From the NCBI GenBank assembly GCA_965215185.1, contig OZ244034.1, positions 2,048,001 to 2,112,000 on the forward strand: a stretch of 64,000 nt of DNA. The letters are read 5' to 3'. The notes beneath the pieces were generated by a model, which worked only from the letters and a program-made list of their open reading frames with translations, did no database searches and had not been told where the DNA came from. Shown here in pieces: positions 11,933 through 39,052 of this stretch (positions within the stretch are counted from its first letter, which is position 1; each line of letters opens with the position of its first letter). Source of the DNA: Acidimicrobiia bacterium. GTDB taxonomy: Bacteria > Actinomycetota > Acidimicrobiia > Spongiisociales > ZC4RG35. The translations under genes and the position numbers were made by a program.

Positions 11933-12227
11933 GACACCCGGCCAATCGACCTTCTCACCCACCAGAGGACACCCTGGGTAGATGAGAGCCGACGCCGCAC
12001 ACGGGGCACAACTTTTCTTTCGCCAACCTCCGGTATTTGACAAAAGAAAAGTTTCGGCAGTGAGACTCTCCCATTCGGGCCGATGCCCCACCTCCACCTT
12101 GCCATGGGTCAGGGGAAGCCGCGTCCAGCCGCAACCGGGTTGGATTCTTCGGACAGTCTTAATCCCTCGAAACGGTCCGAACGACGCCGGAACGGACCGT
12201 TTTGGTGTTTAGGTCCCTGTCAACTTA

Positions 12228-12241
12228 GGTATATAAGTCCC
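12228..12241 (-). repeat. Solo IS1595-like terminal inverted repeat end
   Basis: Minus strand reads GGGACTTATATACC, similar to the cassette ends GGGCTTATATAC and GGGACCTATATAC. No partner end found. Confidence 0.4.
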
Positions 12242-12285
12242 TATTGAAACGCACCTGCGGTAGCGTGCGAGATGACGTGCTCCAA

Positions 12286-23925: not shown

Positions 23926-24282
23926 GCCTTGATAAAACAAAGGCACCCTCGCAATAGGAAGAGCGCACAGGCTGAATCCGACATCTCACACGTCACTGTC
24001 CGCGGCTACACCATCAAAGATGGTCTCCAGCACCTCCTTTGAGCGACACGGTCACAATCACCAAAGCCGGGGGTCCATAGCTCACAGATTCGGCGTAAAC
24101 CGGCACTTCGGAAGAGAGTGGGGAGTTGGGAATCCGTCGATTGGGAGGTCGCGGGTATAGACGCGGTGCTGCGACGCCGTGGTGGCACCGCTCGCCGGTG
24201 CCGAGTTGAACGAGTGGCCACCGTAACTCGCAGTGACCATCCACTTGGCGGGCCGCAGCCTCTGGTAATAGGCTGATTTCGC

Positions 24283-24942
24283 ATGAGCGCCACACTGGAG
24301 AACACTCCCGACGGCCAAACTTGGGCGGCGACCCGAACGGTGGACATTTGGCGAAACGTTGCACAAACAACACCGATTGTCCAGTTCTTTACCGGCATGT
24401 TCGACGTTATCGGTGTCACGATCGAAGAAACCGGTGAGGAACTGACCATAAGAACAACTGGGGACAGGATCGAAATCGAGGAGGGTATGCCCGACACGTA
24501 CGATTTTTTGGTGCCCCTAAAAGTGGAGAACGTTACGAACATGGTGTCCCATGCCGCTAAAGGAACCTTGGACAGTTTCGCTACGTGGCGAGTGGCCTCC
24601 GTTCTGTTCACACCATTGACGCGGGAAACCTTGAAGAACCCCATTATGTCAAACGGGGCGTTGAGGGTGCTGGGCCGAGTGGAAGACCTTATACATGTCA
24701 AACTGGTCGGACCCGACGATGAACATGTGGCCGAGCACACCCTCGTTTTCGCCGGCAAGCAATGGCTGGTCGTGGAAGGGGCACACGGGCAGCCACGGAG
24801 AGTGTTCCGTCTTACCGGGGAGCAATGTGTCGAATACCAAAAGCAGGTGTTCAAAGCTATGAAGGCCAACACGGTCAGAGGCTGGTGGCGTTTCGGGCGT
24901 TGGTATAACACCTGGCGCGCCGGAGTGTCTGTCCGAACCTAA
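24283..24942 (+). CDS. Hypothetical protein
   Basis: 219-aa ORF with globular-protein composition; no family recognised. Confidence 0.65.
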   Translation: MSATLENTPDGQTWAATRTVDIWRNVAQTTPIVQFFTGMFDVIGVTIEETGEELTIRTTGDRIEIEEGMPDTYDFLVPLKVENVTNMVSHAAKGTLDSFATWRVASVLFTPLTRETLKNPIMSNGALRVLGRVEDLIHVKLVGPDDEHVAEHTLVFAGKQWLVVEGAHGQPRRVFRLTGEQCVEYQKQVFKAMKANTVRGWWRFGRWYNTWRAGVSVRT

Positions 24943-24994
24943 CGCTGAGAATGGAAGGGGACCTATATCCCTGAAGGGACCTACATCCTTAACG

Positions 24995-25660
24995 GGGTCA
25001 TCGAAGTTGGTGGGGAGTGGTGGTGAGTAGGTTCCAGTTGGGTTTTCCGGCGTAGAGGAGTGCTCGGATTCTGTAGTTGCCGAAGTTGCGGAACCCGAAC
25101 GCTGCTCGTTTGATGCGCTTGATCAGGTTGTTCATGGCTTCGATGGGTCCATTGGTTACCGCTGACAGATGCCGATTGGTGATCTGGGTAGCCCAGCGGG
25201 CGATAGTGGGTCCGAGGCGGTTCATCTCATGGGGCAGTGACCGGTTCTTGGAGGTCGCCCGCTAGCTGGGTGGTGAACTCTGTGGCCAGTTTCGGGCAGC
25301 CTATTCGGTAGATGTCCCGGACGCTTTCCTTGGCGTGCCCGGCATTGCGGACTTCTCCGTAAGGGTCACCAGCTTAAAGGAGGCCTTTGATACGATCTTC
25401 ACCGCGGGTGTCGAGCCGTTCTTAGGCCATGGTCAACAGTCGTCTCGTCCGGGAGAGAGGATCGCCTTTTCGACCTCGATGACCCAACGTCTCGTTCTGA
25501 ACACGGCGCGGACCTCTTCTAGTCGCTGCTTCACCAAGCGTGTCACATGGAAAGGATCGGCTACCTGCAAAGCCAGAGCCCGTAAACCGCGCGCTCCGAT
25601 TGTCACCTCAGCGGACCCACCACAGGTCGTTGTCGATGTGGTCGGTGTCCCGGCCACATC
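24995..25660 (-). pseudogene. ISL3-family transposase remnant
   Basis: Fragments in different frames: QVADPFHV.RL and TNGPIEAMNNLIKRIKRAAFGFRNF.NYRIRALLYAGKPNW. Frameshifted and deleted. Confidence 0.88.
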
Positions 25661-25688
25661 CCCACTTGGAGTTTCGGGTTGGAAAGCT

Positions 25689-26696
25689 TCAGGGAACGAG
25701 GACGGCCCGACCCGTGATGCGGCCCGAGGCCAGATCGGAGAGCGCCTGGTTGGCCTGGTCGAGGGGGTATCTGGTTACCCGGGGAACCAGCTTGCCCGAT
25801 AGCGCCAGGTCGGTTACCTCCACCAGATCGCGATAGCTTCCCACATAGGCCCCTTCGATCTTCTTCTCGCCTCCCACCAGATCGAAGATGGGGACCCGAA
25901 GGGTTCCACCCACGCCCACCGCCACGTAGTGGCCGCCGAATCCCAGCAGATTGATACCGGCCGCCGCCGTCTCATCCGAGCCGACGAAGTCCAGCACCGC
26001 TGCCGGTTGACTCTTCCCCAGCAAGCAAGTGAGCTTCTCAGGTTGCACCCCCGCTGCGGCGCCACACTCCTCGGCGAGAGCCAGGGCGTCTGCTCTCACG
26101 TCGGTAGCCACCACCCTGGCCGGGGAGATCGCCGCCAGGATCTGTATGGCCAGATGCCCGAGTCCCCCCGCTCCAAAGACCACCACGGTGTCCCCGGGCC
26201 GAAGGTCCAGCTTGGCACAGGCGCGGTAGGCGGCCAGACCGGCGTCGGTGAGAGGTGCCAGGTCGGTGGGATCTACCCCATCCGGCAACTTGACCATGGC
26301 CCGCTCGTGGGAGAGCAGGTGGGTGGCGAATCCTCCCGGAGCGTTTATGCCGGGAGTGACTCGATCGGGCGCCCACTGGTCGAGGCCGTCTCGCTCAGGG
26401 TCGCTCCGACCGTCCGAGATGAAGGGATAGCACAGCACCGGATCGCCGGCTTTCACCGTTGCGACCCGGCTCCCCACCGCCTCCACGAAACCGGCGTTTT
26501 CGTGGCCCAGCACATGGGGAAGATCCACTGTGATCTCACCAGCCAGAATGTGCAACTCCGTGCGGCAAACCCCGGCGCCGGCCATCCGGACCACCACATC
26601 GTGAGGTCCCTCTGGCTCGGGTCGAGGCACTTCAGCCATTTCTACAAGGTCCCCGGCAAGATCGGGAACCAGCCTGCGCATCAGGGCCGCTCGCAT
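25689..26696 (-). CDS. NAD(P)-dependent Zn alcohol dehydrogenase
   Basis: GAGVCRTELH, LGHENAG, APL.DAG..AY, GAGGLGH, G...GRAVLVP; RBS GGGGGAAGG before ATG 26696. Confidence 0.88.
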   Translation of the reverse strand: MRAALMRRLVPDLAGDLVEMAEVPRPEPEGPHDVVVRMAGAGVCRTELHILAGEITVDLPHVLGHENAGFVEAVGSRVATVKAGDPVLCYPFISDGRSDPERDGLDQWAPDRVTPGINAPGGFATHLLSHERAMVKLPDGVDPTDLAPLTDAGLAAYRACAKLDLRPGDTVVVFGAGGLGHLAIQILAAISPARVVATDVRADALALAEECGAAAGVQPEKLTCLLGKSQPAAVLDFVGSDETAAAGINLLGFGGHYVAVGVGGTLRVPIFDLVGGEKKIEGAYVGSYRDLVEVTDLALSGKLVPRVTRYPLDQANQALSDLASGRITGRAVLVP

Positions 26697-26855
26697 CAAA
26701 CCTTCCCCCTTATTAAAGGGCTTATATACGATCCTACACACCCTAGAACGCCTTAACTGCGCCGACATCCGCACCAGACATCGGAGGCGCAAAGGCAAGC
26801 CGGGAAGGATCACCAGACGCAAACAGGGACGGTCGCCGGGTATTGACAGGGGGAG

Positions 26856-26877
26856 TGTCACAGGGCAGGTGTATCTT
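26856..26877 (+). promoter_or_regulatory. Putative promoter TGTCAC-N10-TATCTT upstream of jetC (PafBC/RecA-NDp-like)
   Basis: TGTCAC at 26856-61, TATCTT at 26872-77, ATG 10 nt later; also a TGACA-N7-TGTCA dyad at 26844-26860. Confidence 0.45.
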
Positions 26878-26887
26878 GCAGAAGTGA

Positions 26888-29800
26888 ATGACAACAGCAA
26901 CACTAATTGAACAGAAGCCTCGAATCCTTTCAGTAAAGGGACACGACCCAACCCCTCCGAATAGGTGGCAACTGAACCGCGGCGGGATTCTCAATGTGTA
27001 CCAGTACGGCGATGAGGTGCTCCAATTCGGCGGCGGGCGCTTGTTACTCCGCGGCACCAACGGTGCGGGGAAAACCATGGCTATGAACATGCTCCTGCCA
27101 TTCCTGCTCGTAGCCCAACTGCGGGGCCTCGATGCCGCAGGAGAGCAGAGCGGCACTCAGGTGCTCAGGTCGTGGATGCTGGACGGGAAGGAGCGCCGGC
27201 AGCCGGGCGGGTATCTGTGGTTGGAGTTTCGCAGGGGCAACGACTTTTTCACATGCGGGTGTGGCCTCAAAGCAAGCAAGTCCACGGGGACAGTGAATCA
27301 CTGGTGGTTTGCCGTAGACCAACGGCCGATATTGGATTTCCCCCTCCAAAAAGACAGCGTACCCCTGTCGGAGGGGCAACTGCGTTCCCTCTTGGAAGGA
27401 GGGCAGGTTTTCAGCGAGCGGCAACGGCCCGACTATCGCCGCCTGATCAACAAGAGGCTGTTCGGAGGTGTGTCCACCGAACAGCACTTTCGGTTGCTCA
27501 ACAGGGTGCGGAACCCACGCGTCGGGGACCGTATAGATATTGAGATACCCCAGTTGCTGAAAGATGCCCTGCCTCAGCTTCGGGATCGGATACTGGATAC
27601 AGTGGCGCGCTCTCTCGATGATTTGGAGGAACGGCGCCGCGAAGTGGTCGGGTTAGAGCAGACGTCGGAGGCGTTGGAGGGCGTGCTGGATGTATACCGC
27701 TCGTACTGCTTCTCGTGGATCGGAGATGCCAGAGACAGGGGGATGTCTCACATTAAGGAGGTGGCCCGCATCGCCAGAGAGCAGGATCGGCGCCAAAGGG
27801 AGGTGGAGGGTGCCATCCGCGAAGTGGAGAAGTTGGAACTGAGTATCGCGGACCTCGACTCGAGCATACTGAACTTATCTTCGACCATCGAGGCATTGAT
27901 GTCCTCCCACGCCTATCGGGGCATCCAAGAACTCGACACCAGGCGCCAACTCGTAGCAAACCACCGCCGAAGGGTCGGGGACGCCGAAATCCGCGTTGAG
28001 AGCGCCGAGGATCGGGTGCAGGGCGACGCTTCTACCCTAAAGGATCGGGAAACCGATGCGCGCCAGGACCTGAATCGGGTCAACCACGGGATCGATGGGA
28101 TAGCGACTATCGGGCAGCGACACGGGGTGGATGGCGATCCTCCAAGTCGGATTCTTCTCCCGAACGCCGGTGCGGAACTTGCTGCCGGGCGCATCTCTGA
28201 AGGTATCGACCGGTTTGACACTGGCATCCAAGCGAGGAAGCGCGGGGTGTCTGAGGTGCGCGCCGAGTTGGAGCGAGTGCGAAAACTCGAAGCGGAAATG
28301 TGCGACATCGAACAGATGTTGCAGGATCGCAAGGCCCAGGCTGAGGAGGCATGGCAACATGCTCGCGGGAGGGCAGAGGAACTCGAAGTCGCCGCTCTGG
28401 AATGGGTGGAACACTCCCGATCATGGAGTAGCCAAGTGGTCGCCGTTCTCGGAGACGCCTCCCCGTGGTCTACCGAACCCGCAAAGGGGGCATCCTCGAT
28501 CTCCACCTTGGAAGAGGTGGATGCCGAAAGGAAGATGCTGGCGGGAGCGATCAACGACTCGATAACAACTCTCCGGAAGGAACTGTCGCTGCTGGAGCGA
28601 GAGTTGTCCGACATCAGGAGATCCAAGAGAGAGGCGCAGGCACTCGCTGACAAGTGGGCCAACCTCACCGAACCCGAACTCCCTCATCCGGCGTGGCAAT
28701 CATCCTCCGATTACTGCTTGGCCGACCTTATTGACTTCTCCCCCTCCCTGTCACCCGCCGAGCAAGCAGGAGTCGAGGCGGCACTCGAGGCATCGGGGCT
28801 ACTCTTTGCCCGGCCGGATGCCCACTCGGTCATCCTCGCCAACGGAGAATTGGTGGCCATCCCATCCACTCCGTCGCCCCGACCACTTAGCCAACTCCTC
28901 TCTGTGCGGATATCCGCACGACTGCGGGATGCGGTAAAGGTCGATGACTTGGAGAATCTCTTGGGATCGCTGTCCACAGATCCATCGGACACCGGCGCAG
29001 CGGCGATCATATCCGCCGATGGCACCTTCCAGGTCGGCTCACTGAGAGGTCGGCACTTCAAGGAATACCCCGAGTTCATCGGCGAGACGACCCGACAAAG
29101 AACCCTTGAGCGAGAAAGGATGGATGCGAACGCTCGCCTTAGGGATATCGAGGCGGAGTTCGCCAAATCAAGGGGCCTCTCGGATAGCCATAAAGATATG
29201 GTGCGCCGACTCGAGGGTATCCGACAGGATCTGCCCGTCAACACCGAGGTTGCGGAGGCCAGTGCTCGTCTTGGTGAGGCGGAGGTAGGGGCGGAGACGA
29301 AAGAGAACCGTCTATCAGAGCAGTCTGAGAGGATGGAGCAGTCCCGGCGGGTGACAGGGGCGGCGCGGGACCGGCTTCGGGCCACCGCTCAAGGATTGTC
29401 GCTTCCCGATGACCCCAAGGGCCTTGATCAGGTGTGGGGCGACTTGGAACTGGCGAACGAGCATCTGAGGGAGGTGCGCCAGTTGTTGGAGAGGCTGGAG
29501 AGAAGCGTGGCTATCAGGAACGACGCCGTGGGCCGCAAGGCTGACTCGGAGAGAGATATGGGCGATGCCCATGATGCTCTGGCTCAGCATCAGGAGGACT
29601 TGCGATCACAGGAGGGTCAACTGTCCACCTTGGAAGAGAGTATCGGAGTGGATGCGAGGGAGATCGCAGACCGGCACCGCCGCCACCAGGATGACCTGGA
29701 AGCCAAGAAATTGAAGATGCGGCAAACAAGGAAGGCTCTAACCGATGCGTTTAGGCGGCGGGCGGATGCGAAGGCTGGCGCCAGCGCCGCCTCGGTCGAG

Positions 29801-30952
29801 AGGGGCCGTCTGGATGAACAGGGTGAGAATCTGGCGCGCACCTTATCGGAGGCGCTGAGTACCCCGGGATTGTGGAAATCTCTCACTGAAGATGCCTATC
29901 CCGCGGAGCAGATGGCCCCACCGATGGGGATACAACGGGTGCTCGCCACCTTGGATGAATATCTCCCCGCCCACTCGGGGGAGCGTGTCGGCGCCGGAGG
30001 GGTCTCCATGTCGGTCATGCGTCGCCGAGACCGGCTCGGGGGTGGATGGGATGTGGAGACCCGGTCGCCGGATGATGCGAACCTTCCCCTCTTGGTTGAG
30101 GTGAACGGTCCGTCAGGGAGGACCACGTTGGCCCGGGCGGTAACCACGGTGCGCCGAGAATACGAGATGGCATCTAGTGCATTGGGGACCGGGCAGGAAG
30201 CGCAGTTGCGCGACCTCCTTCAGGGAGCCATAGCCAAGGAGGTGGCTGAAAGGTCGCATGCCGCCAAGGAATTAGTAGCCAAGATGAGGCGGCACATCCA
30301 GGAACTATCCACCGGCAGTCAGATAGGGGTGGATATCCGGTGGCACATAGACCCGTCCCTTGACGCCGACACCAAGCGCATGGTGGAACTGATGTCTATG
30401 CTCCCTGACACCCGCACCGACGCGGACCATAAGCATCTAACGCTACTACTCAACCAGCACTTGGAGCGGTCCCGGGTCGAATACCCGGAGATCGGATACA
30501 AGCAGGCATTGAGTGAAGCCCTCGACTATAGGAACTGGCACCGCCTGCAAGTGAAGGTCAGGAGGGAGAACGAGCCATACAAGGTACTCGGTCGAAAGAA
30601 CGATCTGTCGGAGGGGGAGAAGAAGTTCGTCACCTACCTCCCACTCTTCGCCGCGGTGGCGGCCTCCTGCGACTCCATCTCGGAGACTTCCGAAGAATAC
30701 GGCATATCCCGTTTCATTCTCCTTGACGACGCCTTCGCCAAGGTTTCGGAGGACAACCACGCTCAATTGTTCGGACTGCTGACGGACCTGGACCTGGACT
30801 GGATAGCCACTAGTGAACGGCTGTGGGGCAACCACGCCACCATTCCCGAATTGGAGATCGTAGAGGTGGTCCGCGACCCCGACTTGAGGACCATCCTCCT
30901 AGAGAAAAACCGGTGGAACGGACGCTCCATAGGTGTACCGTATTATGACTAG
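26888..30952 (+). CDS. jetC: Wadjet type II SMC/MukB-like ATPase JetC (TIGR02680-like)
   Basis: RW...R.G..N..QY, GRLLLRG.NGAGKT (Walker A), long coiled coils around a hinge-like region (EAALEASGLL), LSEGEK signature, FILLDDAF (Walker B), DLD.I.TSE.LWG. Confidence 0.88.
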   Translation: MTTATLIEQKPRILSVKGHDPTPPNRWQLNRGGILNVYQYGDEVLQFGGGRLLLRGTNGAGKTMAMNMLLPFLLVAQLRGLDAAGEQSGTQVLRSWMLDGKERRQPGGYLWLEFRRGNDFFTCGCGLKASKSTGTVNHWWFAVDQRPILDFPLQKDSVPLSEGQLRSLLEGGQVFSERQRPDYRRLINKRLFGGVSTEQHFRLLNRVRNPRVGDRIDIEIPQLLKDALPQLRDRILDTVARSLDDLEERRREVVGLEQTSEALEGVLDVYRSYCFSWIGDARDRGMSHIKEVARIAREQDRRQREVEGAIREVEKLELSIADLDSSILNLSSTIEALMSSHAYRGIQELDTRRQLVANHRRRVGDAEIRVESAEDRVQGDASTLKDRETDARQDLNRVNHGIDGIATIGQRHGVDGDPPSRILLPNAGAELAAGRISEGIDRFDTGIQARKRGVSEVRAELERVRKLEAEMCDIEQMLQDRKAQAEEAWQHARGRAEELEVAALEWVEHSRSWSSQVVAVLGDASPWSTEPAKGASSISTLEEVDAERKMLAGAINDSITTLRKELSLLERELSDIRRSKREAQALADKWANLTEPELPHPAWQSSSDYCLADLIDFSPSLSPAEQAGVEAALEASGLLFARPDAHSVILANGELVAIPSTPSPRPLSQLLSVRISARLRDAVKVDDLENLLGSLSTDPSDTGAAAIISADGTFQVGSLRGRHFKEYPEFIGETTRQRTLERERMDANARLRDIEAEFAKSRGLSDSHKDMVRRLEGIRQDLPVNTEVAEASARLGEAEVGAETKENRLSEQSERMEQSRRVTGAARDRLRATAQGLSLPDDPKGLDQVWGDLELANEHLREVRQLLERLERSVAIRNDAVGRKADSERDMGDAHDALAQHQEDLRSQEGQLSTLEESIGVDAREIADRHRRHQDDLEAKKLKMRQTRKALTDAFRRRADAKAGASAASVERGRLDEQGENLARTLSEALSTPGLWKSLTEDAYPAEQMAPPMGIQRVLATLDEYLPAHSGERVGAGGVSMSVMRRRDRLGGGWDVETRSPDDANLPLLVEVNGPSGRTTLARAVTTVRREYEMASSALGTGQEAQLRDLLQGAIAKEVAERSHAAKELVAKMRRHIQELSTGSQIGVDIRWHIDPSLDADTKRMVELMSMLPDTRTDADHKHLTLLLNQHLERSRVEYPEIGYKQALSEALDYRNWHRLQVKVRRENEPYKVLGRKNDLSEGEKKFVTYLPLFAAVAASCDSISETSEEYGISRFILLDDAFAKVSEDNHAQLFGLLTDLDLDWIATSERLWGNHATIPELEIVEVVRDPDLRTILLEKNRWNGRSIGVPYYD

Positions 30953-32390
30953 CCCCAACCGTGCCAGGGACCTGCTGCGGTACATGACCTCCTCCAAGTG
31001 GGAGGAGTACCGCTCCATCCTCGCGGTGTTCGTAGACCGTCCGGTGCCCGAATTCACTCCAGAGGACATATCTTTGAGGACGGGCATAGACCCAGACACT
31101 GCCCAAGCGAGAATGCAAAACCTCCGAGGATGGGGCAATCTCGCCGAAGCAACTTCCACAAAGAACCCCACCAGTCTCGAAGACTATTATCGCCGGAGCA
31201 GGACCTACCTGATCACCACCTCCGGGCAGGACACCTTTGCGGCGGTCGAAAATGTGCTCGCCAAGGTCGGACGGGTCGATGACCTGCAGCCCGGACGACT
31301 CCGCACCCTGCGAGTCCACTTGGAGAATCTGATCTCGGAATTGGAGAGGGGTGCTGATCCATCCGACACCGTACAGGCTGTATTCGACACGCACCTCCTG
31401 TTCGCCGGCCAACTCAGGAACTTTTCAGCGGAACTCAATGTCTGGCAGAGGCGTTACGACCTCGATGTGGAAGAGGTGCCCATTTTGGCGGACGTGCTGA
31501 TCGGTTACTTCACCCAGCGACTTCAGGAGATTGACCGCGAGGTGCCGCGGGTTTCGCAGAAACTGGAACACCTACAGCCCTTCTTGCCGAAACTGGTGGC
31601 CCGGATGGGGCGGTCCGGCCTGGCGGCGCGGGTGGCCAGCGCCGGATTGGAAAGCGAGATATCCGTGCAGAGGAGGAGGGGCACGAAGATCGAGGATTGG
31701 ATGGACTTGCGATCATGGTTCGTGTCCTCGCGCCGATCTTCGGAGATGGGTCGCATCACCGACCAGGCCTTATTGGCGGTCAATACCCTCACCGCCAACC
31801 TGATTCGCTTCTCTCGAAGCGGCTCGGCGGAGGCCTCGCGCCGCGCTGATTTCCTGCGCCTTGCGGGATTCTTCCACCACTCGGCCACTGATGATCAGGC
31901 TCACTACATAGCGGGAGCGGCTTTCGGCTTGGGTTCGTGCAGGCATCTGGGCTATCCGTCGTCGGACATCGATGACCCCTGCCCGATCACCACTCCTTGG
32001 AGAGATGCCCCCAAGGCCGCGGTCCCTGTGTCCCTGCGGAAGCGGGGCGACATCACCCAGCGGGGTGGCATGTCCCGGATAAGAGACCGCAAGGAAGAGC
32101 AGCGACACATGAGGGATATCCGGCAAAGGGCTCACGCCTCCCGCCAGAAGGCGATCTCCGAACTGACCGATATGGCCGATAGCGGGGATTTGGCTGGGCG
32201 CAGCCTTTCCACAGAAGCCTCCCAACTGCTACTCAACATGATCTCCAACGCGACCTCGGGGAGTTACGCCGACTACGGCATCCGGTGCGAAATCCGCAGG
32301 GACAGCAACTCCCGAACGACCATCGAAACCACCGAGGGGTGGATGATCATCCGGGATCGGACGGTGGCGCTGGTCAGTGAGGAGGCATGA
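30945..32390 (+). CDS. jetA: Wadjet type II kleisin JetA (TIGR02677/DUF2397-like)
   Basis: L.RY......EYR.I..VF, L..WGNL, DYYRR...Y..T..G, W..L..WF, SRR.DF.RLA.FF, AFGL...RHL, W..AP...VPVSLR..G; overlaps the jetC stop. Confidence 0.82.
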   Translation: MTSPNRARDLLRYMTSSKWEEYRSILAVFVDRPVPEFTPEDISLRTGIDPDTAQARMQNLRGWGNLAEATSTKNPTSLEDYYRRSRTYLITTSGQDTFAAVENVLAKVGRVDDLQPGRLRTLRVHLENLISELERGADPSDTVQAVFDTHLLFAGQLRNFSAELNVWQRRYDLDVEEVPILADVLIGYFTQRLQEIDREVPRVSQKLEHLQPFLPKLVARMGRSGLAARVASAGLESEISVQRRRGTKIEDWMDLRSWFVSSRRSSEMGRITDQALLAVNTLTANLIRFSRSGSAEASRRADFLRLAGFFHHSATDDQAHYIAGAAFGLGSCRHLGYPSSDIDDPCPITTPWRDAPKAAVPVSLRKRGDITQRGGMSRIRDRKEEQRHMRDIRQRAHASRQKAISELTDMADSGDLAGRSLSTEASQLLLNMISNATSGSYADYGIRCEIRRDSNSRTTIETTEGWMIIRDRTVALVSEEA

Positions 32391-33484
32391 CCAACGCTCG
32401 GGTATCCGAACTGAGAGAGGTCGCCCGCCATCTAGTGCGGCATCCTCTGGTCAACATCGAGGATGACCCTGACATGTTCACTCTGATCCGCCGACACGCC
32501 CAGGAACTGAATCGGAGCTTCAGTCAGCGCTTCGGCTACCGGCTGGTGGTGAACCTGGACACCGCCCGTCTCTACAAGTCCACGGTGGTCACCCGCAGGC
32601 CCTTCACCGCAGGAGCAAACAAGAGGGATTTCAAGCCCCGGGAATACACGATGCTGGCACTGGGACTGGCTGTCATGACATCCGGACAGAAGGTGATCAG
32701 CCTCCAGGAACTGGTGGGCGACATGCGATCAGCGGCTGTCGAGGCCGAGGTTGACCAAATAGATGACTCCCATTCAGACCGGAGCGCGGTGGTGGCGGCG
32801 CTGCGGTGGCTGATATCCCGCGGCGTGGTGGAGGAGAGCCATAAGAGCGTGGGGGGCTATATCGGAGATTCTTCCGCTGATGCGATACTGACGATCCACT
32901 ACGACCGGGGCAAGCTCCTGCCCCTACTGGCGCTCTCATCCTCCGAGTCGGTGGGCCAACTGCTGGACAGGTCCGGCCAGAGTCCGAAGGCGCGAGTGCG
33001 GTCCTTTCTCCTGGAGGAGCCTGCGGTATACCGCGAGGATCTCACCGAGTCCGAGTGGCGGGAGTATCGGCACTACCGCTATCGGGAGGAGCCGATTTTC
33101 GAGGAGATGTTCGGCATGACCATCGAGACCCGCGCTGAGGGCATGGTGGCCATAGATGAGGATGGGGGGATGACGGATGAACACTTCCCTCGTGGCGGAG
33201 GAACGATACCCCAGGCCGCTTTACTCCTAGTCAGCCAACTCGCCGGTACCGACCGAGAAGATTTCGAGTGGAAAGAGATCGTGGAGACGGTGCGCCACCT
33301 CGCCAAACAACACCGGCACTACTGGTCGGCACTGGCCCGCGAACCCGAACAGTTGGCCCACCGCGCCGTAAAGGTACTCGCGGGTCACAGACTGGTTGAA
33401 AGCGCTGGCGGCACGGTGCGACTCCAGCCTGCCGCGTGGAGATATGCGGTTGAAGTCGCCTGTGAGCAAACCCCTCTGCTATGA
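32387..33484 (+). CDS. jetB: Wadjet type II JetB (TIGR02678/DUF2398-like)
   Basis: ARHL...P, F.L.RRH...L...F...GYRL.V....ARL.K, R.A.V.ALRWL...GV, L.E.P.VY..DL, E.RAEG...ID....TD..FP, P...RY; ATGA overlap. Confidence 0.82.
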   Translation: MTNARVSELREVARHLVRHPLVNIEDDPDMFTLIRRHAQELNRSFSQRFGYRLVVNLDTARLYKSTVVTRRPFTAGANKRDFKPREYTMLALGLAVMTSGQKVISLQELVGDMRSAAVEAEVDQIDDSHSDRSAVVAALRWLISRGVVEESHKSVGGYIGDSSADAILTIHYDRGKLLPLLALSSSESVGQLLDRSGQSPKARVRSFLLEEPAVYREDLTESEWREYRHYRYREEPIFEEMFGMTIETRAEGMVAIDEDGGMTDEHFPRGGGTIPQAALLLVSQLAGTDREDFEWKEIVETVRHLAKQHRHYWSALAREPEQLAHRAVKVLAGHRLVESAGGTVRLQPAAWRYAVEVACEQTPLL

Positions 33485-34716
33485 TCCCCGACTCGTTGCG
33501 GGACCCTCAAATGTCGCCGGTATGGGCAGCGGCCCGGGCGCGACTCGACCGGGACGATCAGGTTCAGAGCCGGTTCATTCAACCCGAACTCAATCCCCAC
33601 AACCGCCACTGCCTCACCGGACTGCTCGGCCGGGAACCGACCAAGAGAATCGCCCTCGCGGCCATCGAGAGTGCCCTGGTTGAGCGTGGAATCGGGCACG
33701 ACCTAGACGAGGCGCTCAGTCGGCTCGGATATCCTCCCTCTCCAAAGGCGGTCGAGAGGATGGCCGAGAATGCTCGCATCTCCGGGGTCCGGGATGCGAT
33801 CAATACCCAAACCGCCTCATGGCCAGAACCGTGGGGCGGACAGTGGGCCAAAACCGTCATGAGGTCGGGGTTGCTGTCGGATGTTGGGGGAGAGGAAACC
33901 TCGCGTCTGGCCCATCGCGTGCGGATGATCCTCGATCTCCTCGATGACAACCCCGATGCTGTTTTTAGTCGTTGCGAGTTGGCTGCTCGCCTGTACGGGT
34001 CCTCGCATGCCCTAGATGGAAACCAAAAACTCTACCGTCTTGTGGAGCACGCTTTGAGGTTGCGATCCGAACGGACGGATCTAAGCGGACGAAAACTGTT
34101 TGAGCATGTCGGCATCGAGCACTCCTTGGTTGGAGCCCCCGTGCTGACATGGGCAGTCCCCGCGATCGGGGACACCCCGTTGGACAGGCAGATACGCGTA
34201 GCCAACCAAGGGGGTACCCCGCTTCACATCAACCTGTACACCTTGCGAAAATATAGAGTGAGCGTCCCCTCGGGTACAAAGGTATTGGTCGTAGAGAATC
34301 CCCGCTTAGTTGAAGCCGCCGCACAGAGACACCTCTCCGCATGCGTAATAGCGTCTAGCGGAACGCCGACCACCGCGGTCACCACGCTGTTGCGACAGAT
34401 AGCCGATTCCGATGCTGGAATATGGTTTCATACCGACTTCGACAAGGGGGGATTCCGGATAGGCAATTTCTGGCATGCGAGTGGATACGAACCCTGGATG
34501 ATGGCGCACACCGACTACCTCAGTGCAGTGAGCGCATCTGCGAGAGCGGGGCTAAACCTTCCCGTTGACACCACCCCAGAATCGTGTGGAGAACCCGCAT
34601 GGGACCGGAGTCTACGACCCGCCTACCAGGTCGAGTGCTTGGAGGTACACGAGGAAGTCGTTTCCGATGCCGTACTTGACGGGTTTGCTGATCACTTCCC
34701 TGCCGTTCCTTTTTAG
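33481..34716 (+). CDS. jetD: Wadjet type II TOPRIM nuclease JetD (TIGR02679/DUF2399-like)
   Basis: ELAA...G.SHALD, V.VVENP...EAAA, H.DFD..G..I (TOPRIM DxD), PW.M...DY, WD..L.......HEE; ATGA overlap. Confidence 0.85.
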   Translation: MIPDSLRDPQMSPVWAAARARLDRDDQVQSRFIQPELNPHNRHCLTGLLGREPTKRIALAAIESALVERGIGHDLDEALSRLGYPPSPKAVERMAENARISGVRDAINTQTASWPEPWGGQWAKTVMRSGLLSDVGGEETSRLAHRVRMILDLLDDNPDAVFSRCELAARLYGSSHALDGNQKLYRLVEHALRLRSERTDLSGRKLFEHVGIEHSLVGAPVLTWAVPAIGDTPLDRQIRVANQGGTPLHINLYTLRKYRVSVPSGTKVLVVENPRLVEAAAQRHLSACVIASSGTPTTAVTTLLRQIADSDAGIWFHTDFDKGGFRIGNFWHASGYEPWMMAHTDYLSAVSASARAGLNLPVDTTPESCGEPAWDRSLRPAYQVECLEVHEEVVSDAVLDGFADHFPAVPF

Positions 34717-34730
34717 ATAGATGGTTATTC

Positions 34731-34949
34731 CTATCCCCAGCGTCCCGAACGATCCTGAACGCCTGTACTTCCCACCACTCCGGGTTCCGCCCAGACGGTC
34801 ATAACGCCCACATGTGAACACTCGCGCCGGTCGCGTGCGCTGTGACTGACCGCTTCATGGTCATAGTTGTCCATGTTGTCATACGCCGCGTTCCCATCGG
34901 TAAACACGGAGGCTCCCCCTTTCACCCATGATCGCACAAATCCCTGCAA
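34731..34949 (-). pseudogene. IS1595-family transposase fragment
   Basis: LQGFV...V..GA.VFTDG.AAY..M..Y.HEAVSHS matches the ISXO2-like DDE segment (TD...Y...H..V.HS); rest deleted. Confidence 0.8.
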
Positions 34950-35042
34950 AGTACGGGTGGTCGGGACAAATCCAAGTTCAAATCCGTGTGTAGGATCGTA
35001 TATAGGTCCCTTATTAAAGACTTACGAATAACTGTGAGAACC

Positions 35043-37484
35043 CTAGCCGCGGGTGCGGGGAGTGTAGAAGGACCTGAGCGAGGCGGTAGCGGGAATCCGC
35101 ACCCCTGCCACTTCGATCTCGTACTCCCCGGCCTCGAGCCAGGCCTTGTCGATGCCGTCGGGGTGCACCAGGTATCCCATGGCCAGGCACCGATCCTCGA
35201 TATAGCTCCACATGCCCGAGGTGGTGCGACCTAGGATCTCTCCGTTCCGGAAGATGGGCTCGTCGTGATAGAGGAGTCGGTCTGGGTCCTCCAGGCGGAA
35301 CTGGATCAAGCGCTTGGAGAGGCGGCGTCCCCGCTGGGATTCCAGGGCCTCCTTGCCGCAGAACCCGCTGGGCTTGCTCCAGTCCACCGCGAATCCGAGG
35401 CCGGCCTCCAGCGGAGTGTCCTCGTCGGTGATGTCATGTCCCCAGTGGCGGTAGCCCGCCTCCAACCGGAGGGAGTTCATGGCGTGGAAACCAGCGTGGC
35501 GAAGCCCGTGGACGGCGCCTTCAGCCACAACCGCGTCGTGGAGCGCTACCGCCCCGTCCTCGGGAACGTACAACTCCCAACCCAACTCGCCCACGTAGCT
35601 CACCCGCATGGCCAGCACCCGGTGACCGGCCACCTTGATCTCCTGGTAAGTGCCGAAAGGAAAGGCCTCGTCCGAAAGATCGGCCTCGGTGAGAGCCGAC
35701 AGGAGGTCTCTCGACCGGGGACCCATGACTCCCAGGACCGTCAAGGCAGCCGTGACGTCACGGATCTTCACGGCGTGGCTCCGGGCGGCCCGGCGGAGGT
35801 GCGCCCAGTCCCGGGTGGGCGCGCCGGAGCCGGAAACCACCAGGAAGCGTTCTTCGGAGAGCCTGGTAACCGTCAGATCGGCCTCTATCCCGCCGCGAGG
35901 ATTCAGCCACTGCGTGTAGACAACTTTGCCCCGGGGACCGGGGACCCGGCCGGCCGAGATCCAGCCCAACAGCCGGGCGGCGTCGGGACCCTCCACCTCG
36001 TACTTGACAAAGGACGTCTGATCGAAGAGGCCGACCGCCCGGCGAACGGCCAAGCACTCCTCGCCCGACGCCTCCCACCAGTTCTGCTTGCCATAGGAGT
36101 AGCGGTAGCGACGCTCCATGCCTTCGGTGGCATACCAGTTGGGCCGCTCCCAGCCGGACATCTCCCCGAAGACCGCTCCGGCCCCGGCCAGCCGATCGTG
36201 GAGTGGCGAGCGCTTCACATCCCGGGCACTCTCGTACTGGAAGAATGGCCAGTGCATGGCATAGAGAAGACCCAGGCTCTCCGATATCCGCTCTTTCAAG
36301 AATCCCGGGTCGGTCTGATGGGGCTGGGCTCGGCGAATATCCACCGGCCAAAGGTCACGGGGAGGATGGCCGTCTATGATCCAATCAGCCAAAACCCACC
36401 CCACTCCTCCGGCCGATTGAATGCCAACCGAGTTGAATCCGGCCGCCACGAAACACCGGTCCACCTCGGGAGACTCCCCCAGGTAGTAGACCCCATCGGG
36501 CGTGAAAGCCTCCGGGCCGTTGAAGAAGAGCTGTATCCCCACCTCACCCAGGGCGGGGACCCGGTGGATGGAACGCTCAAAGATCGGCCCCACATGCTCC
36601 CAGTCCTCGGGAAGCCGCCCGAAGCTGAAGTCTCGGGGGACCTCGTTGAGATTCCAAACCTTGCCACGCGGTTCGAAGAAACCGGCCATGATTTTGCCGG
36701 TCTCCTCCTTGAAATACGTGTAGTTGGTGGGATCCCGTAAGGTGGGCATCCCTGGCGGCACTCCATCGAGAGGCTCGGTCACCAAGTAGAAGTGCTCACA
36801 GGCCTGTAGCGGCACCCGCACCCCGGCGGTAGCGGCCAACTGGCGGGTCCAGATTCCCGCCGCCAGCACCACTGCCTCGCACTCCACATACCCTTGCTCG
36901 GTCTCCACTCCCACCACCCGCCCGTTCCTGACCCGCAGCGATTCCACCGCCACCCCCTCTCTGATCCGAACTCCCCGATCTTTGGCGCCCTTGGCTAGGG
37001 ACATGGTGGTGTCCACCGGACTGGTCTGCCCGTCATGGGGAATCCAAGCCGCCCCCACCAGATCGTCGGTGCGTACCAGCGGCCATCGTTCCCGCAGTTC
37101 GTCGAAGTCCATCTGGCGCATCTCCACTCCCACAGTTCGGGCCATGGAGAGCCCCCGCATGATCTCCTCCCACCGTTGGTGGTCAGACGCCACCGATATG
37201 GAACCCACCGCCCGGTAACCGGTGGCCTGCCCAGTTTCGGCTTCCAGTTCTTGAAAGAGTCGCGCCGAGTAGGTAGCCAAGCGGGTGAGGCTGTGGGATG
37301 ATTTCAGTTGGCTGACCAGCCCAGCCGCATGCCAAGTGGTCCCACCGGTGAGTTTTCCCTGCTCCATCAGCAGCACATCGGTCACCCCGCGGCGGGCCAG
37401 ATGATAGGCGACGCTGCATCCAACGATCCCCCCGCCCACTACCACCACTTGGGCCCGGGAGGGCAGCACACCGGCGCCCGCCAT
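35043..37484 (-). CDS. GcvT-family FAD-dependent amine dehydrogenase (sarcosine/dimethylglycine dehydrogenase-like)
   Basis: GGG..G.S.AYHL, GTTWHAAG, NGPE.FTPD, GWERPNW, SYVGELGWEL, SLRLE.GYR.WG.DI. Confidence 0.92.
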   Translation of the reverse strand: MAGAGVLPSRAQVVVVGGGIVGCSVAYHLARRGVTDVLLMEQGKLTGGTTWHAAGLVSQLKSSHSLTRLATYSARLFQELEAETGQATGYRAVGSISVASDHQRWEEIMRGLSMARTVGVEMRQMDFDELRERWPLVRTDDLVGAAWIPHDGQTSPVDTTMSLAKGAKDRGVRIREGVAVESLRVRNGRVVGVETEQGYVECEAVVLAAGIWTRQLAATAGVRVPLQACEHFYLVTEPLDGVPPGMPTLRDPTNYTYFKEETGKIMAGFFEPRGKVWNLNEVPRDFSFGRLPEDWEHVGPIFERSIHRVPALGEVGIQLFFNGPEAFTPDGVYYLGESPEVDRCFVAAGFNSVGIQSAGGVGWVLADWIIDGHPPRDLWPVDIRRAQPHQTDPGFLKERISESLGLLYAMHWPFFQYESARDVKRSPLHDRLAGAGAVFGEMSGWERPNWYATEGMERRYRYSYGKQNWWEASGEECLAVRRAVGLFDQTSFVKYEVEGPDAARLLGWISAGRVPGPRGKVVYTQWLNPRGGIEADLTVTRLSEERFLVVSGSGAPTRDWAHLRRAARSHAVKIRDVTAALTVLGVMGPRSRDLLSALTEADLSDEAFPFGTYQEIKVAGHRVLAMRVSYVGELGWELYVPEDGAVALHDAVVAEGAVHGLRHAGFHAMNSLRLEAGYRHWGHDITDEDTPLEAGLGFAVDWSKPSGFCGKEALESQRGRRLSKRLIQFRLEDPDRLLYHDEPIFRNGEILGRTTSGMWSYIEDRCLAMGYLVHPDGIDKAWLEAGEYEIEVAGVRIPATASLRSFYTPRTRG

Positions 37485-37501
37485 GGGCTCCGGGGGCGAA
37501 A

Positions 37502-39052
37502 TCAGCCGCCCCTCACCGATTCGACCGGAAGCCTGATGGGAAACCGCTCTCTCAACATCTCGTCCACCTCGGGGGGGACGTGACTGGGAAAGTGGCTGGC
37601 CAGCGTCTCAATGACGTATTCATGCGCGCGGTCGGAGGCCGAAAGTTTGCCTGCGTCGCTCCAGTCGTCGGGGCTGAGTCGGTCCCCTATCTTCGGGTAC
37701 AGGTACTCCCGTTGCATCACCCGAAGCGTCTGTTCGTGTCCGAGAAAATGCCCCTCTCCGGAAATCACCTCCTTGACCACCTGGGTGGCCAAGCTGTCCG
37801 GGTTGACCTCTATGCCCCGAACCGTCCGGTTGACCGCCCCCAGCAAATCGTTGTCGACCACCATCATCTCCAGTGAACAGGCCAGAAGCGAAGCCATCAT
37901 CCCCGCCGATTCGTAAACCAGATTGGCCCCGGCCAGAGCGGCCAAGGCCACAGTGAGGCCCTTTTCGTGTCCGGCTTGGGCGTCGACCAGCTTAGAGTCG
38001 CTCATCCCCGCCGGAACCCCCGAGGGAAGTCCCAGCCAATTGGCGAGTTGCGCTCCGCCCGCGGACAGCACCGCCTCCTCCCCACTGCCTCCGGTCATGG
38101 CGCCGGTGCGCAGATCGGAGACGAATGGCCACAGCCCCATAACGCAGGGGTGTCCCGGCGACATCATGTTGATGCAGGTCAGGGCGGCCAGGCACTCCGC
38201 CAAGGCTTGGACCAGCGACCCGGCTAGCGTGGCAGGGGAAGTTGCCCCGGCCTGACCGGCGGACAACAGATTGATGGGCATTCCGGTCCTCACCTGCGCC
38301 ACCATGCCTTCCGCCGTCTCCTTGGCAAACCGCAGCGGAGGAACCACAAAGGTGCTGTTGGCCACAATGAAGGGGCGCTTCCGGAACTCACCGGGTCCGC
38401 CCATCACCATGTCACACATCTCGACCACCTCATAGACGTGAGCGGCTTGGAAGAACGAGGTCCCGATCGGCTTGGTAGTGCCCATCATGGTGGCATAGGC
38501 GGTGTTGATGTCCACCTCCCTGGCCCCGTCCACTTCGCGGGTGACAACCGGTCGCACGAAAAAGTGGATGTGTTCGAGGGTGTCGGCCAGGCGAGACAGA
38601 TCGTAGAGGTCCTGAGTAGTGGAATGCCGATACGACTGGGTTAGATGGTCGAGAATGAGAACCGCGGCCCCCGCGGTCCCAAAATGCACCTTCTGGTCAG
38701 AAAGCTCAATGGAGCGACTCTCATCGAGGCCGTGCCATACCCACGACTTGGCGGCCACCTCGATCGCTCGTTCCACCAGCGACCTCGGAAACCGCAGCCG
38801 TCCATCGTCGTCAACCCACCCGCCGTTGGCCACCACCGCCTCTATGAACTCAGGGATCGGATCACCCATCCCCACCTCCTCCAACAGATCCAAGGAGGCC
38901 CCGTATACGCTCTCCATATCCGATTGGGACAGCGGTTGGTAAGCGCCACCCGACTGGCCCGGCCTCACCGGACGATCAACCTTCTTCAGCCCAGCGGCGC
39001 GGGCGGCGACCCGAGCCGCCCTTCCTCCTGACCGGCGACTGCCCCGCCCCAT
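37502..39052 (-). CDS. Trimethylamine methyltransferase (MttB superfamily), non-pyrrolysine
   Basis: FGTAGAAV, SP/PLRF region, AGATSPATLAG.LVQ..AE, SDLRTG...GG..E, DSK..DAQAG.E, GHFLG..QT; no in-frame amber. Confidence 0.9.
   Translation of the reverse strand: MGRGSRRSGGRAARVAARAAGLKKVDRPVRPGQSGGAYQPLSQSDMESVYGASLDLLEEVGMGDPIPEFIEAVVANGGWVDDDGRLRFPRSLVERAIEVAAKSWVWHGLDESRSIELSDQKVHFGTAGAAVLILDHLTQSYRHSTTQDLYDLSRLADTLEHIHFFVRPVVTREVDGAREVDINTAYATMMGTTKPIGTSFFQAAHVYEVVEMCDMVMGGPGEFRKRPFIVANSTFVVPPLRFAKETAEGMVAQVRTGMPINLLSAGQAGATSPATLAGSLVQALAECLAALTCINMMSPGHPCVMGLWPFVSDLRTGAMTGGSGEEAVLSAGGAQLANWLGLPSGVPAGMSDSKLVDAQAGHEKGLTVALAALAGANLVYESAGMMASLLACSLEMMVVDNDLLGAVNRTVRGIEVNPDSLATQVVKEVISGEGHFLGHEQTLRVMQREYLYPKIGDRLSPDDWSDAGKLSASDRAHEYVIETLASHFPSHVPPEVDEMLRERFPIRLPVESVRGG

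What the first reader, a model, noticed from the sequence alone, without database searches (positions are those of the whole stretch)
26710..35018. Wadjet anti-plasmid system packaged in a non-autonomous IS1595-type transposon
Seen: 8293 bp bounded by inverted repeats sharing a 19-bp perfect core (TATATACGATCCTACACAC) and GGG termini, flanked by an exact TTATTAAA duplication. An alternative reading is 24-bp ends with a 9-bp CTTATTAAA duplication. Inside are four intact overlapping jet genes and only a short IS1595 transposase fragment. Known: IS1595 elements typically make 8-bp duplications and have passenger-carrying derivatives (tIS/MIC); type II Wadjet is DUF2397/2398/SMC/2399 and cleaves small circular DNA. 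Inference: a mobile defence cassette moved in trans. I know of no described case for Wadjet. If the element forms a circular intermediate, its own cargo could target it.
Basis: partly seen in the sequence, partly recalled or inferred. Interest (0 to 1): 0.88.

Follow-up and report, generated by a model that had tools for sequence, protein, structure and literature searches.

The report
Wadjet defence operon in transposase-less IS1595 cassette
An intact four-gene anti-plasmid (Wadjet) operon sits inside an 8.3-kb cassette that keeps the ends but not the enzyme of an IS1595-type jumping gene, and some cells in natural samples have the same site cleanly empty, so the whole cassette has moved as one piece.

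Summary
An 8,293-bp element (26718-35010) has 24/25-bp terminal inverted repeats with a perfect 19-bp core and is flanked by an exact TTATTAAA duplication. No 19-mer inverted pair arose in 100 shuffles. It carries a complete type II Wadjet operon in the order jetC-jetA-jetB-jetD.

The decisive new result came from laying four public runs. In two runs, from two studies, a contig joins 26706 directly to 35008. It skips 8,301 bp, which is the element plus one repeat copy, so it is an exact empty site beside the occupied one.

The genome holds no IS1595 transposase and no other copy of these ends, so the cassette is stranded here. The ends were found nowhere else, so mobilisation in trans is inferred, not shown.

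Wadjet as transposon cargo is already reported for Tn7-like elements. This is a new variant of a known kind, of moderate interest.

The parts
26710..26717 (.). Left copy of the target-site duplication TTATTAAA. It can be read as 8, 9 or 10 bp because CCCTTATTAAAG is shared on both sides.
   Evidence: The joint has 12 letters that fit on both sides.
26718..26741 (+). Left terminal inverted repeat: GGGCT plus a 19-bp core identical to the right end.
   Evidence: pair I1. Unique in the genome. 0 of 100 shuffles gave a 19-mer inverted pair.
26752..26823 (+). 72-bp internal fragment of the large TnpB-like accessory gene of an IS607-type element, in sense orientation.
   Evidence: 76% identity to G000 C1:1422004-1422074 on the opposite strand. 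The translation resembles the resident protein.
26888..30952 (+). jetC, type II: an SMC-like ATPase of 1354 aa.
   Evidence: PADLOC JetC2 846 bits over residues 20-1347. PF13558. Walker A, signature and Walker B stretches are conserved with the G006 homologue.
30933..32390 (+). jetA, type II: DUF2397, 485 aa.
   Evidence: PF09660 276 bits. PADLOC JetA2 339 bits.
32387..33484 (+). jetB, type II: DUF2398, 365 aa.
   Evidence: PF09661 244 bits. PADLOC JetB2 283 bits.
33481..34716 (+). jetD, type II: DUF3323+DUF2399 Toprim nuclease, 411 aa. Its last roughly 6 residues and its stop codon are supplied by the IS607-type terminus.
   Evidence: VVENP and DFD stretches are conserved with G006. The C-terminus differs from G006 after LDGFA(D/N)H.
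34703..34833 (-). 131-bp terminal remnant of an IS607-type element (the end distal to tnpA). 34703 is the exact element terminus.
   Evidence: 82-86% identity to three resident copies, which are 91-95.5% alike among themselves. The resident copies carry an IS607 TnpA, NF033518 at 164.6 bits.
34836..34961 (-). IS1595-family transposase fragment of 42 residues, corresponding to about residues 193-237 of a 314-aa enzyme. It includes the TDG...H..V.HS part of the DDE domain.
   Evidence: PF12762 29.2 bits. 90% identity to the full-length P0122. P0122 scores 186 bits on NF033547, IS1595 family transposase.
34986..35010 (-). Right terminal inverted repeat: as reverse complement, GGGACC plus the same 19-bp core.
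35011..35018 (.). Right copy of the target-site duplication TTATTAAA.

Best explanation
This is a non-autonomous derivative of an IS1595-family insertion sequence, in the sense of a mobile insertion cassette (MIC). It keeps both terminal inverted repeats but only 42 codons of the transposase, and it carries a complete type II Wadjet operon (jetCABD).

The cassette was assembled elsewhere. An IS607-type element had landed at the very end of jetD, another lay upstream of jetC, and deletions then fused these to IS1595 ends.

The finished 8.3-kb unit then inserted between the FAD-oxidoreductase/GcvT gene and the alcohol dehydrogenase gene. It duplicated TTATTAAA and used a cognate IS1595 transposase supplied in trans.

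In the present genome no such transposase exists, so the cassette is stranded.

The cargo, by homology, is an SMC loop-extruding sensor (JetABC) with a Toprim nuclease (JetD) that cleaves small circular DNA such as plasmids.

Shown: the anatomy, the gene identities, the exact empty site, and the absence of a transposase and of other copies.

Inferred: the order of assembly, the trans mobilisation, and the activity of the Wadjet system.
For: 1. Terminal inverted repeats of 24/25 bp with a perfect 19-bp core, plus an exact 8-bp duplication. This matches the 25-bp repeats and 8-bp duplications reported for the IS1595-family elements MTnSag1 and tISCpe8 (PMC5704250, passages).

2. An IS1595 DDE fragment lies about 25 bp inside the right end. 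It is 90% identical to a full-length IS1595 transposase.

3. Exact empty site. A contig joins 26706 to 35008, skipping 8,301 bp with 12 ambiguous letters, in 2 of the 4 runs laid: X1 at depth 2.5 and X2 at depth 6. These come from two studies.
- In X2 the occupied form is one 8,362-nt contig at depth 13.6, and the flanks are at 15.1 and 21.8.
- X4 has one contig spanning the occupied site. In X5 one contig crosses the left boundary.
- No joint to an IS-only or partly filled state was listed.

4. The two flanking genes are adjacent in 6 of 16 other species of the genus. In the closest (G010) the spacer is 46 nt. The window's spacer is 45 nt once the element and one repeat copy are removed (counted by eye).

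5. The IS607-type remnant in the cassette is only 82-86% identical to the three resident copies, which are 91-95.5% alike. It did not come recently from this genome's own copies. That fits assembly elsewhere followed by arrival as a unit.

6. This Wadjet clade is patchy: 2 of 201 genomes of the family. The only other one (G006, 54-64% aa identity) lies at another locus, and its JetD keeps a different C-terminus that does not come from an IS607-type end.

7. The Wadjet genes are full length against the PADLOC profiles, and their ATPase and Toprim stretches are conserved.
Against: - There is only one copy of these ends anywhere. None was found in 400 other genomes of the order with up to 2 mismatches. 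The genome contigs and metagenome-contig scans gave 3 single, unpaired matches in low-GC organisms, consistent with chance. The viral-contig scan gave none. Repeated transposition is therefore not shown.
- No cognate transposase is in this genome. The closest found in 201 genomes of the family is 61% identical. Plasmid records reach at most 46% and viral contigs at most 54%.
- I could not obtain DNA of the 90%-identical transposase P0122, so it is not shown that such an enzyme's own element has these repeats.
- The empty allele could be an older lineage that never received the IS. It is known only from 61-nt contigs (22 nt on the left, 39 nt on the right, 1 other letter).
- Base composition is host-like: GC 60.1% against 60.7%, and 13.8% of 188 genome windows are at least as deviant in tetranucleotides. 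Composition gives no sign of foreign origin.
- No sigma-70-like promoter was found upstream of jetC, and expression is untested.
Confidence: 0.65

Rival explanations
1. Assembly in place. An ordinary IS1595 element inserted at TTATTAAA and made the duplication. Later, IS607-type insertions, recombination and deletions brought the Wadjet operon into it and destroyed the transposase. On this reading the repeats and the duplication are relics of the IS alone, and the Wadjet genes were never transposed by them.
For: - It needs one step fewer than the best explanation, because cargo capture must have happened somewhere in either case.
- This genome and genus are rich in IS607-type and ISL3 elements. 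An ISL3 relic lies about 0.5 kb beyond the alcohol dehydrogenase gene.
- Only one copy of the cassette is known.
- Composition is host-like.
Against: - In the four runs laid, only the full and the exactly empty states are seen at this site. No intermediate joint was listed (though 96 loose ends and 197 pieces were not shown).
- The IS607-type remnant differs by 14-18% from the resident copies, which differ from each other by 4.5-9%. It is therefore not a recent product of this genome, whereas the presence/absence polymorphism within one population suggests a recent event.
- No IS1595 transposase or other IS1595 relic exists in this genome.
Confidence: 0.2
2. The cassette is old at this site and the empty allele is secondary. 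It would arise by precise deletion between the two copies of the duplication (slippage helped by the inverted repeats) or by recombination with an empty-site strain. The polymorphism would then say nothing about recent insertion.
For: - The 8-12 nt direct repeat next to 24-bp inverted repeats is the substrate for precise excision known from Tn5 and Tn10 (recalled, not from a call).
- A 94%-identical JetA exists in another assembly. Alcohol dehydrogenase homologues of 95-96% identity also exist, so a sister lineage might carry the cassette at the same site.
Against: - Precise excision of this kind is rare (recalled). Yet the empty form is about 30% of the summed depth in X2 (6 of 19.6) and is present in two studies.
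- The 6 other species of the genus in which the two genes are adjacent all lack any insertion there, so empty is the ancestral state.
- This rival does not change what the element is.
Confidence: 0.1
3. The repeats belong to another IS family that makes 8-bp duplications, such as the ISL3 elements abundant in this genome, and the IS1595 fragment is an unrelated passenger relic.
For: ISL3 transposase genes are present in this genome, including one open 451-aa frame. That ISL3 elements also make 8-bp duplications is recalled, not from a call.
Against: - The resident ISL3 copy ends in GGCTCTTCGGA-type repeats that do not resemble the cassette's ends.
- The IS1595 fragment starts about 25 bp from the right repeat, in the orientation expected of that IS's own left end.
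Confidence: 0.04

Closest known systems
Mobile insertion cassettes (MICs), such as MIC231 derived from IS231 in Bacillus cereus (De Palmenaer et al. 2004, cited in PMC3129680; passages read)
   Same: IS-type terminal inverted repeats flank passenger genes with no transposase. [quoted passage not shown]
   Different: The parent family here is IS1595, not IS231. The cargo is a four-gene, 7.8-kb defence operon. No cognate IS is in the genome and trans mobilisation is not demonstrated. The typical small size of MIC231 is recalled, not taken from a call.
IS1595-family elements with passenger genes: tISCpe8 and MTnSag1 (PMC5704250, passages read) and the 'transporter IS' of Siguier et al. 2009 (cited in PMC3129680; paper itself not read)
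   Same: 25-bp terminal inverted repeats, an 8-bp target duplication, an IS1595 DDE transposase lineage, and carriage of genes unrelated to transposition.
   Different: Those elements encode their own transposase and carry lincomycin resistance and mobilisation functions. This one has lost its transposase and carries Wadjet.
Tn7-like transposons with defence cargo (Benler et al. 2021, PMC8649781; table passage read)
   Same: Wadjet, marked by JetD, is listed as cargo in 34 Tn7-like transposons, so Wadjet riding on a transposon is already in print.
   Different: Tn7-like elements are autonomous, multi-gene, site-targeting transposons. This is a minimal, enzyme-less IS derivative with a short AT-rich target.
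Type II Wadjet, for example Neobacillus vireti (10.1101/2025.03.10.642339, abstract and passages read); type I JetABCD size-limited cleavage of circles (10.1101/2022.10.04.510915, abstract in listing)
   Same: The same four families (DUF2397, DUF2398, SMC-like ATPase, DUF3323/DUF2399 Toprim), with full-length matches to the PADLOC type II profiles.
   Different: The gene order here and in G006 is jetC-A-B-D. I did not establish the order in the reference system. The JetD C-terminus is rebuilt by an IS end. Activity is untested.

Membership tests
Wadjet type II (JetA2/B2/C2/D2) | JetA with DUF2397 (TIGR02677-type kleisin-like subunit) | tested here: met
   PF09660 276 bits over residues 16-475. 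PADLOC JetA2 339 bits.
Wadjet type II (JetA2/B2/C2/D2) | JetB with DUF2398 (KITE-like subunit) | tested here: met
   PF09661 244 bits. PADLOC JetB2 283 bits.
Wadjet type II (JetA2/B2/C2/D2) | JetC, a long SMC-like ATPase with Walker A and Walker B | tested here: met
   PADLOC JetC2 846 bits over 20-1347 of 1354 aa. GTNGAGKT at residue 56, LSEGEKK at 1240 and ILLDDAF at 1277, all conserved in G006. The motif names are recalled.
Wadjet type II (JetA2/B2/C2/D2) | JetD with DUF3323 plus a DUF2399 Toprim nuclease | tested here: met
   PF11796 75.7 bits and PF09664 82.8 bits. PADLOC JetD2 262 bits. VVENP and DFD are conserved. The last roughly 6 residues are replaced by IS-derived sequence.
Wadjet type II (JetA2/B2/C2/D2) | Restricts small circular DNA or plasmids | not testable with these tools
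   Inferred from homology only.
IS1595-family derivative (MIC / transporter IS) | Terminal inverted repeats of about 25 bp | tested here: met
   24/25 bp with a perfect 19-bp core. 0 of 100 shuffles gave a 19-mer inverted pair.
IS1595-family derivative (MIC / transporter IS) | 8-bp target-site duplication | tested here: met
   TTATTAAA on both sides, also readable as 9 or 10 bp. The joint that skips 8,301 bp leaves one copy.
IS1595-family derivative (MIC / transporter IS) | IS1595 DDE transposase, or a remnant of it, next to an end | tested here: met
   A 42-residue remnant only: PF12762 29.2 bits, 90% identity to the full-length P0122. There is no intact gene, so the element is non-autonomous.
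IS1595-family derivative (MIC / transporter IS) | The same ends occur on an intact IS1595 element (cognate partner) | tested here: inconclusive
   The ends were found nowhere else. Relatives 52-61% identical to P0122 in the genus gave no recognisable end repeats with my quick search.
IS1595-family derivative (MIC / transporter IS) | Empty target site exists | tested here: met
   An exact joint in 2 of the 4 runs laid. The flanking genes are adjacent in 6 of 16 other species of the genus.
IS1595-family derivative (MIC / transporter IS) | Mobilised in trans: several copies, or a cognate transposase in the same cell | tested here: not met
   There is a single copy and no IS1595 transposase in the 3.12-Mb genome. 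This lowers 'active MIC here', not 'arrived as a MIC'.

The most novel reading that the evidence does not exclude
The cassette is a defence module that spreads within natural populations by borrowing an IS1595 transposase. IS1595-family elements can form double-stranded circles (MTnSag1). An 8.3-kb circle would be the preferred substrate of the cassette's own cargo. Wadjet would then police the mobility of its own carrier, so that transposition succeeds only from or into cells where Wadjet is silent, or only by a route that avoids a free circle. The loss of the transposase could then be a selected outcome of that conflict rather than mere decay.
Probability: 0.1. Interest if true: 0.8.

Novelty: new variant of a known kind. 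Interest (0 to 1): 0.5.

Why it matters
Defence systems are known to travel on large mobile elements such as prophages, integrative elements and Tn7-like transposons. Here a complete SMC-type anti-plasmid system sits in the smallest possible vehicle: two IS ends and no enzyme. Both the occupied and the cleanly empty site occur in the same natural populations.

If such cassettes are common, annotation pipelines that look for transposases next to defence islands will miss them. IS ends alone would then be a route by which defence operons move between chromosomal sites.

The finding also sets up a concrete test of a conflict between an anti-circular-DNA system and a carrier whose family can pass through a circular form.

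On the ordinary side, each ingredient (MIC, IS1595 passenger carriage, Wadjet on transposons) is already described. This instance is single-copy and currently immobile.

Tried and rejected
**Searches for a second copy of the ends**
- Own genome, with up to 4 mismatches: only two unrelated 4-mismatch hits.
- 400 other genomes of the order, with up to 2 mismatches: none.
- Genome contigs: 2 hits. Metagenome contigs: 1 hit. All are single, unpaired and in roughly 37% GC DNA, and two are the same Amoebophilus-like sequence. I read them as chance.
- Viral contigs: none.

**Searches for the cognate IS**
- PF12762 in the genus gave intact IS1595-family genes in several species. They are only about 50% identical to the fragment and 52-61% identical to P0122.
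- My two attempts to find their terminal repeats gave nothing convincing, and I dropped the line.
- Plasmid records reach at most 46% identity and viral contigs at most 54%.

**Literal empty site in other species.** The intergenic spacer is too diverged to show TTATTAAA itself. Only gene adjacency and spacer length could be compared.

**Trying to place the 94%-identical JetA relative (P0001, on a 59,803-bp contig).** I asked whether any alcohol dehydrogenase homologue lies on a contig of that length. None of 25 does. However, the tool lists only the longest contig of each 90% cluster, so this is inconclusive.

**Other negatives**
- Composition as a sign of foreign origin: not distinctive.
- Rfam over 24000-38000: nothing in the element.
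- Promoter and terminator scan of 26600-27000: nothing.
- ISL3 as owner of the ends: rejected.
- G006 Wadjet flanks: 8 of the 10 flanking ORFs had no Pfam match. One had an HTH_21 match, from an IS-type gene fragment about 1 kb downstream, and one a DUF2442 match. No IS1595 transposase match was among them, and the 19-mer core does not occur in G006.
- Further joints have 22-26-nt sides and low depth, and I do not interpret them: 25981 to 32533 in X4, an 81-bp skip in jetC in X5, and a 296-bp skip in the GcvT gene.
- No structure, complex or atlas job was run, because every protein has a clear family.
- Supplements of papers were closed. Benler et al.'s supplementary lists might name Wadjet-carrying transposons in more detail.

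Full report
**1. What is in the sequence**

The element runs from 26718 to 35010 (8,293 bp).
- Its left end reads GGGCT followed by TATATACGATCCTACACAC. Its right end, as reverse complement, reads GGGACC followed by the same 19 letters (pair I1).
- TTATTAAA flanks it on both sides (26710-26717 and 35011-35018). The flanks and the element termini happen to share more letters (CCCTTATTAAAG on both sides), so the duplication can be read as 8, 9 or 10 bp. Eight is the figure reported for the IS1595 family (PMC5704250 and PMC10045372, passages read).
- A 19-mer inverted pair never arose in 100 shuffles of the region.
- The 19-mer occurs only at these two places in the 3.12-Mb single-contig genome, even with 3 mismatches.

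**2. The cargo**

Four co-directional, overlapping genes fill 26888-34716.
- Pfam and PADLOC identify them as a complete type II Wadjet, each matched over nearly the whole profile: JetC2 (1354 aa, 846 bits), JetA2 (485 aa, DUF2397), JetB2 (365 aa, DUF2398) and JetD2 (411 aa, DUF3323+DUF2399).
- The ATPase stretches of JetC and the Toprim stretches of JetD are conserved with a 54-64% identical homologue in another species of the genus, G006.
- The order is jetC-A-B-D both here and in G006.
- By homology, the system is an SMC loop-extruding sensor with a Toprim nuclease that cuts small circular DNA. [quoted passage not shown] Type I is reported to restrict circles up to about 100 kb (10.1101/2022.10.04.510915, abstract in the listing).
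- Activity here is inferred, not shown.

**3. What else lies between the ends**

The 294 bp between jetD and the right repeat are two fused relics.
- Positions 34836-34961 (minus strand) encode 42 residues of an IS1595 DDE transposase. They are 90% identical to a full-length 314-aa transposase from a metagenome, P0122, and correspond to about its residues 193-237. P0122 itself scores 186 bits on NCBIfam's IS1595 model. About 190 codons between this piece and the right repeat, and about 77 codons after it, are gone.
- Positions 34703-34833 are the terminal 131 bp of an IS607-type element. Three resident copies in this genome share this end, starting at exactly the same letter. The resident elements encode an IS607 TnpA (NF033518, 164.6 bits) and a 547-aa protein with only sub-threshold TnpB-like matches.
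- That terminus overlaps jetD and supplies its last roughly 6 codons and its stop. G006's JetD ends differently after the shared LDGFA(D/N)H.
- At the other side, 10 bp inside the left repeat, lies a 72-bp internal fragment of the same kind of accessory gene, pointing towards jetC.

The Wadjet operon was thus once bracketed by two IS607-type elements in inverted orientation. Deletions later fused these to IS1595 ends.

**4. Did the whole unit move?**

This is the central question, and the sequence alone cannot answer it. An IS that inserted first and was later filled with cargo would leave the same repeats and duplication. Three results bear on it.

(a) Seven public runs from four studies hold the stretch. 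I laid one run from each study.
- In two of the four (X1 and X2, different studies), a contig joins 26706 to 35008. It skips 8,301 bp with 12 letters that fit either side. That is exactly the element plus one copy of the duplication.
- In X2 the occupied form is a single 8,362-nt contig at depth 13.6 and the empty joint is at depth 6. The flanks are at 15.1 and 21.8.
- X4 has one contig through the occupied site. X5 has a contig crossing the left boundary.
- No joint to an IS-only or half-filled state was listed. The tool did not show 96 loose ends and 197 pieces, and contigs drop rare variants.
- The empty allele is known only from 61-nt contigs (22 plus 39 nt, one other letter). That is still far closer than any other species of the genus, whose spacers are unalignable.

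(b) In 6 of 16 other species of the genus the two flanking genes are adjacent. In the closest, the spacer is 46 nt. The window's spacer is 45 nt without the element and one repeat. Empty is therefore the ancestral state.

(c) The cassette's IS607-type remnant is 82-86% identical to the resident copies, which are 91-95.5% identical to each other. It is not a recent product of this genome's own elements. This sits badly with a recent build-up in place but well with assembly elsewhere and arrival as a finished unit.

Together these favour transposition of the unit. I put it at about 0.65, with assembly in place at about 0.2.

**5. What argues for caution**

- The ends occur nowhere else. This covers 400 genomes of the order, one genome per species of the prokaryote collection and the JGI metagenome collection (three unpaired, low-GC chance matches), and viral contigs.
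- This genome has no IS1595 transposase.
- The nearest full-length relatives that I could reach as DNA are 61% identical or less, and I could not define their ends.
- The link between these repeats and an IS1595 enzyme therefore rests on the remnant lying about 25 bp inside the right repeat, in the expected orientation, and on the family-typical repeat length and duplication.
- The resident ISL3 elements, which I recall also make 8-bp duplications, have different GGCTCTT-type ends.
- Composition is host-like. The donor was probably a relative, or the cassette is old in the lineage.
- A 94%-identical JetA exists in another assembly.

**6. Consequences at the site**

- The insertion lies 13 nt upstream of the alcohol dehydrogenase start codon and 24 nt downstream of the stop of the 813-aa FAD-oxidoreductase/GcvT gene. 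Both genes are on the minus strand.
- It therefore separates the dehydrogenase from whatever transcription came from upstream. Whether that gene is still expressed is unknown.

**7. Comparison with what is known**

- The architecture is that of a mobile insertion cassette, meaning IS ends around passenger genes with no transposase. This is described for IS231/MIC231 and listed among IS derivatives that a cognate transposase can activate (PMC3129680, passages).
- The IS1595 family is the one for which passenger-carrying 'transporter IS' were defined (Siguier et al. 2009, seen only as a citation). Its members tISCpe8 and MTnSag1 have 25-bp repeats and 8-bp duplications, and MTnSag1 forms a circular form (PMC5704250).
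- Wadjet as transposon cargo is in print for Tn7-like elements, with 34 cases marked by JetD (PMC8649781).
- Three full-text searches found no Wadjet, or any defence operon, in a transposase-less IS derivative. I judged those listings by titles and abstracts, plus passages of four papers. That is a limited search, not proof of absence.

**8. Verdict**

- 'Moved in trans' remains an inference, and the claim of no precedent needs narrowing.
- This is a new variant of known kinds: an IS1595-derived, enzyme-less cassette with a defence operon as cargo.
- The self-conflict idea is legitimate but untested. It holds that an anti-circle system rides an element whose family can form circles.
- Interest is moderate at 0.5. 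The find is a neat, well-bounded and testable example, but each ingredient is known and this copy is single and stranded.

Noticed in passing
window 37906-38000 (-), inside ORF 37502-39052 (-): Rfam PYLIS_3 (the pyrrolysine insertion sequence of mttB) matches at 49.2 bits against a gathering score of 38. The match is cut off by the end of my search range. The gene is a 516-aa MttB-family frame with no internal stop (PF06253, 355 bits). It therefore looks like a non-pyrrolysine MttB homologue whose coding sequence still hits the PYLIS model.
   Followed up: partly
window 24998-25567: A relic of an ISL3 element lies here. A C-terminal transposase fragment at 24998-25225 (-) matches PF01610 at 58.5 bits. 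The adjacent 25200-25567 is a multi-copy repeat, with 4-7 copies in several genomes of the genus. It lies just beyond the 3' end of the alcohol dehydrogenase gene, so this neighbourhood has been hit by at least three IS families.
   Followed up: partly
G000 C1:1421553-1423250, C1:2413786-2416050 and C1:1650993-1651101 (outside the window): These are resident IS607-type elements. Their second gene encodes a roughly 540-aa protein with no Pfam match and only sub-threshold TnpB/Cas12f-like matches in residues 380-456. It may be an unusually long, divergent TnpB relative.
   Followed up: partly
L023 (G006:C1:2241000-2258000), about 4664-12573: A second species of the genus has a 54-64% identical type II Wadjet in the same jetC-A-B-D order, at an unrelated locus. 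The 19-mer core of the cassette's ends does not occur in that genome. 8 of the 10 flanking ORFs tested have no Pfam match. This Wadjet clade was found in only 2 of 201 genomes of the family.
   Followed up: partly
window 27276-27358 (in jetC): One low-depth contig in run X5 skips 81 bp, an in-frame length, inside jetC (depth 2.3, side 23). It may be a deletion variant or come from another organism, and the support is too weak to interpret.
   Followed up: no
window 35043-39052 (-): An 813-aa FAD oxidoreductase fused to a GcvT domain (dimethylglycine/sarcosine dehydrogenase-like) lies next to an MttB-family methyltransferase. This suggests a methylated-amine or glycine-betaine catabolic cluster, whose downstream alcohol dehydrogenase gene is now separated from it by the cassette.
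   Followed up: no
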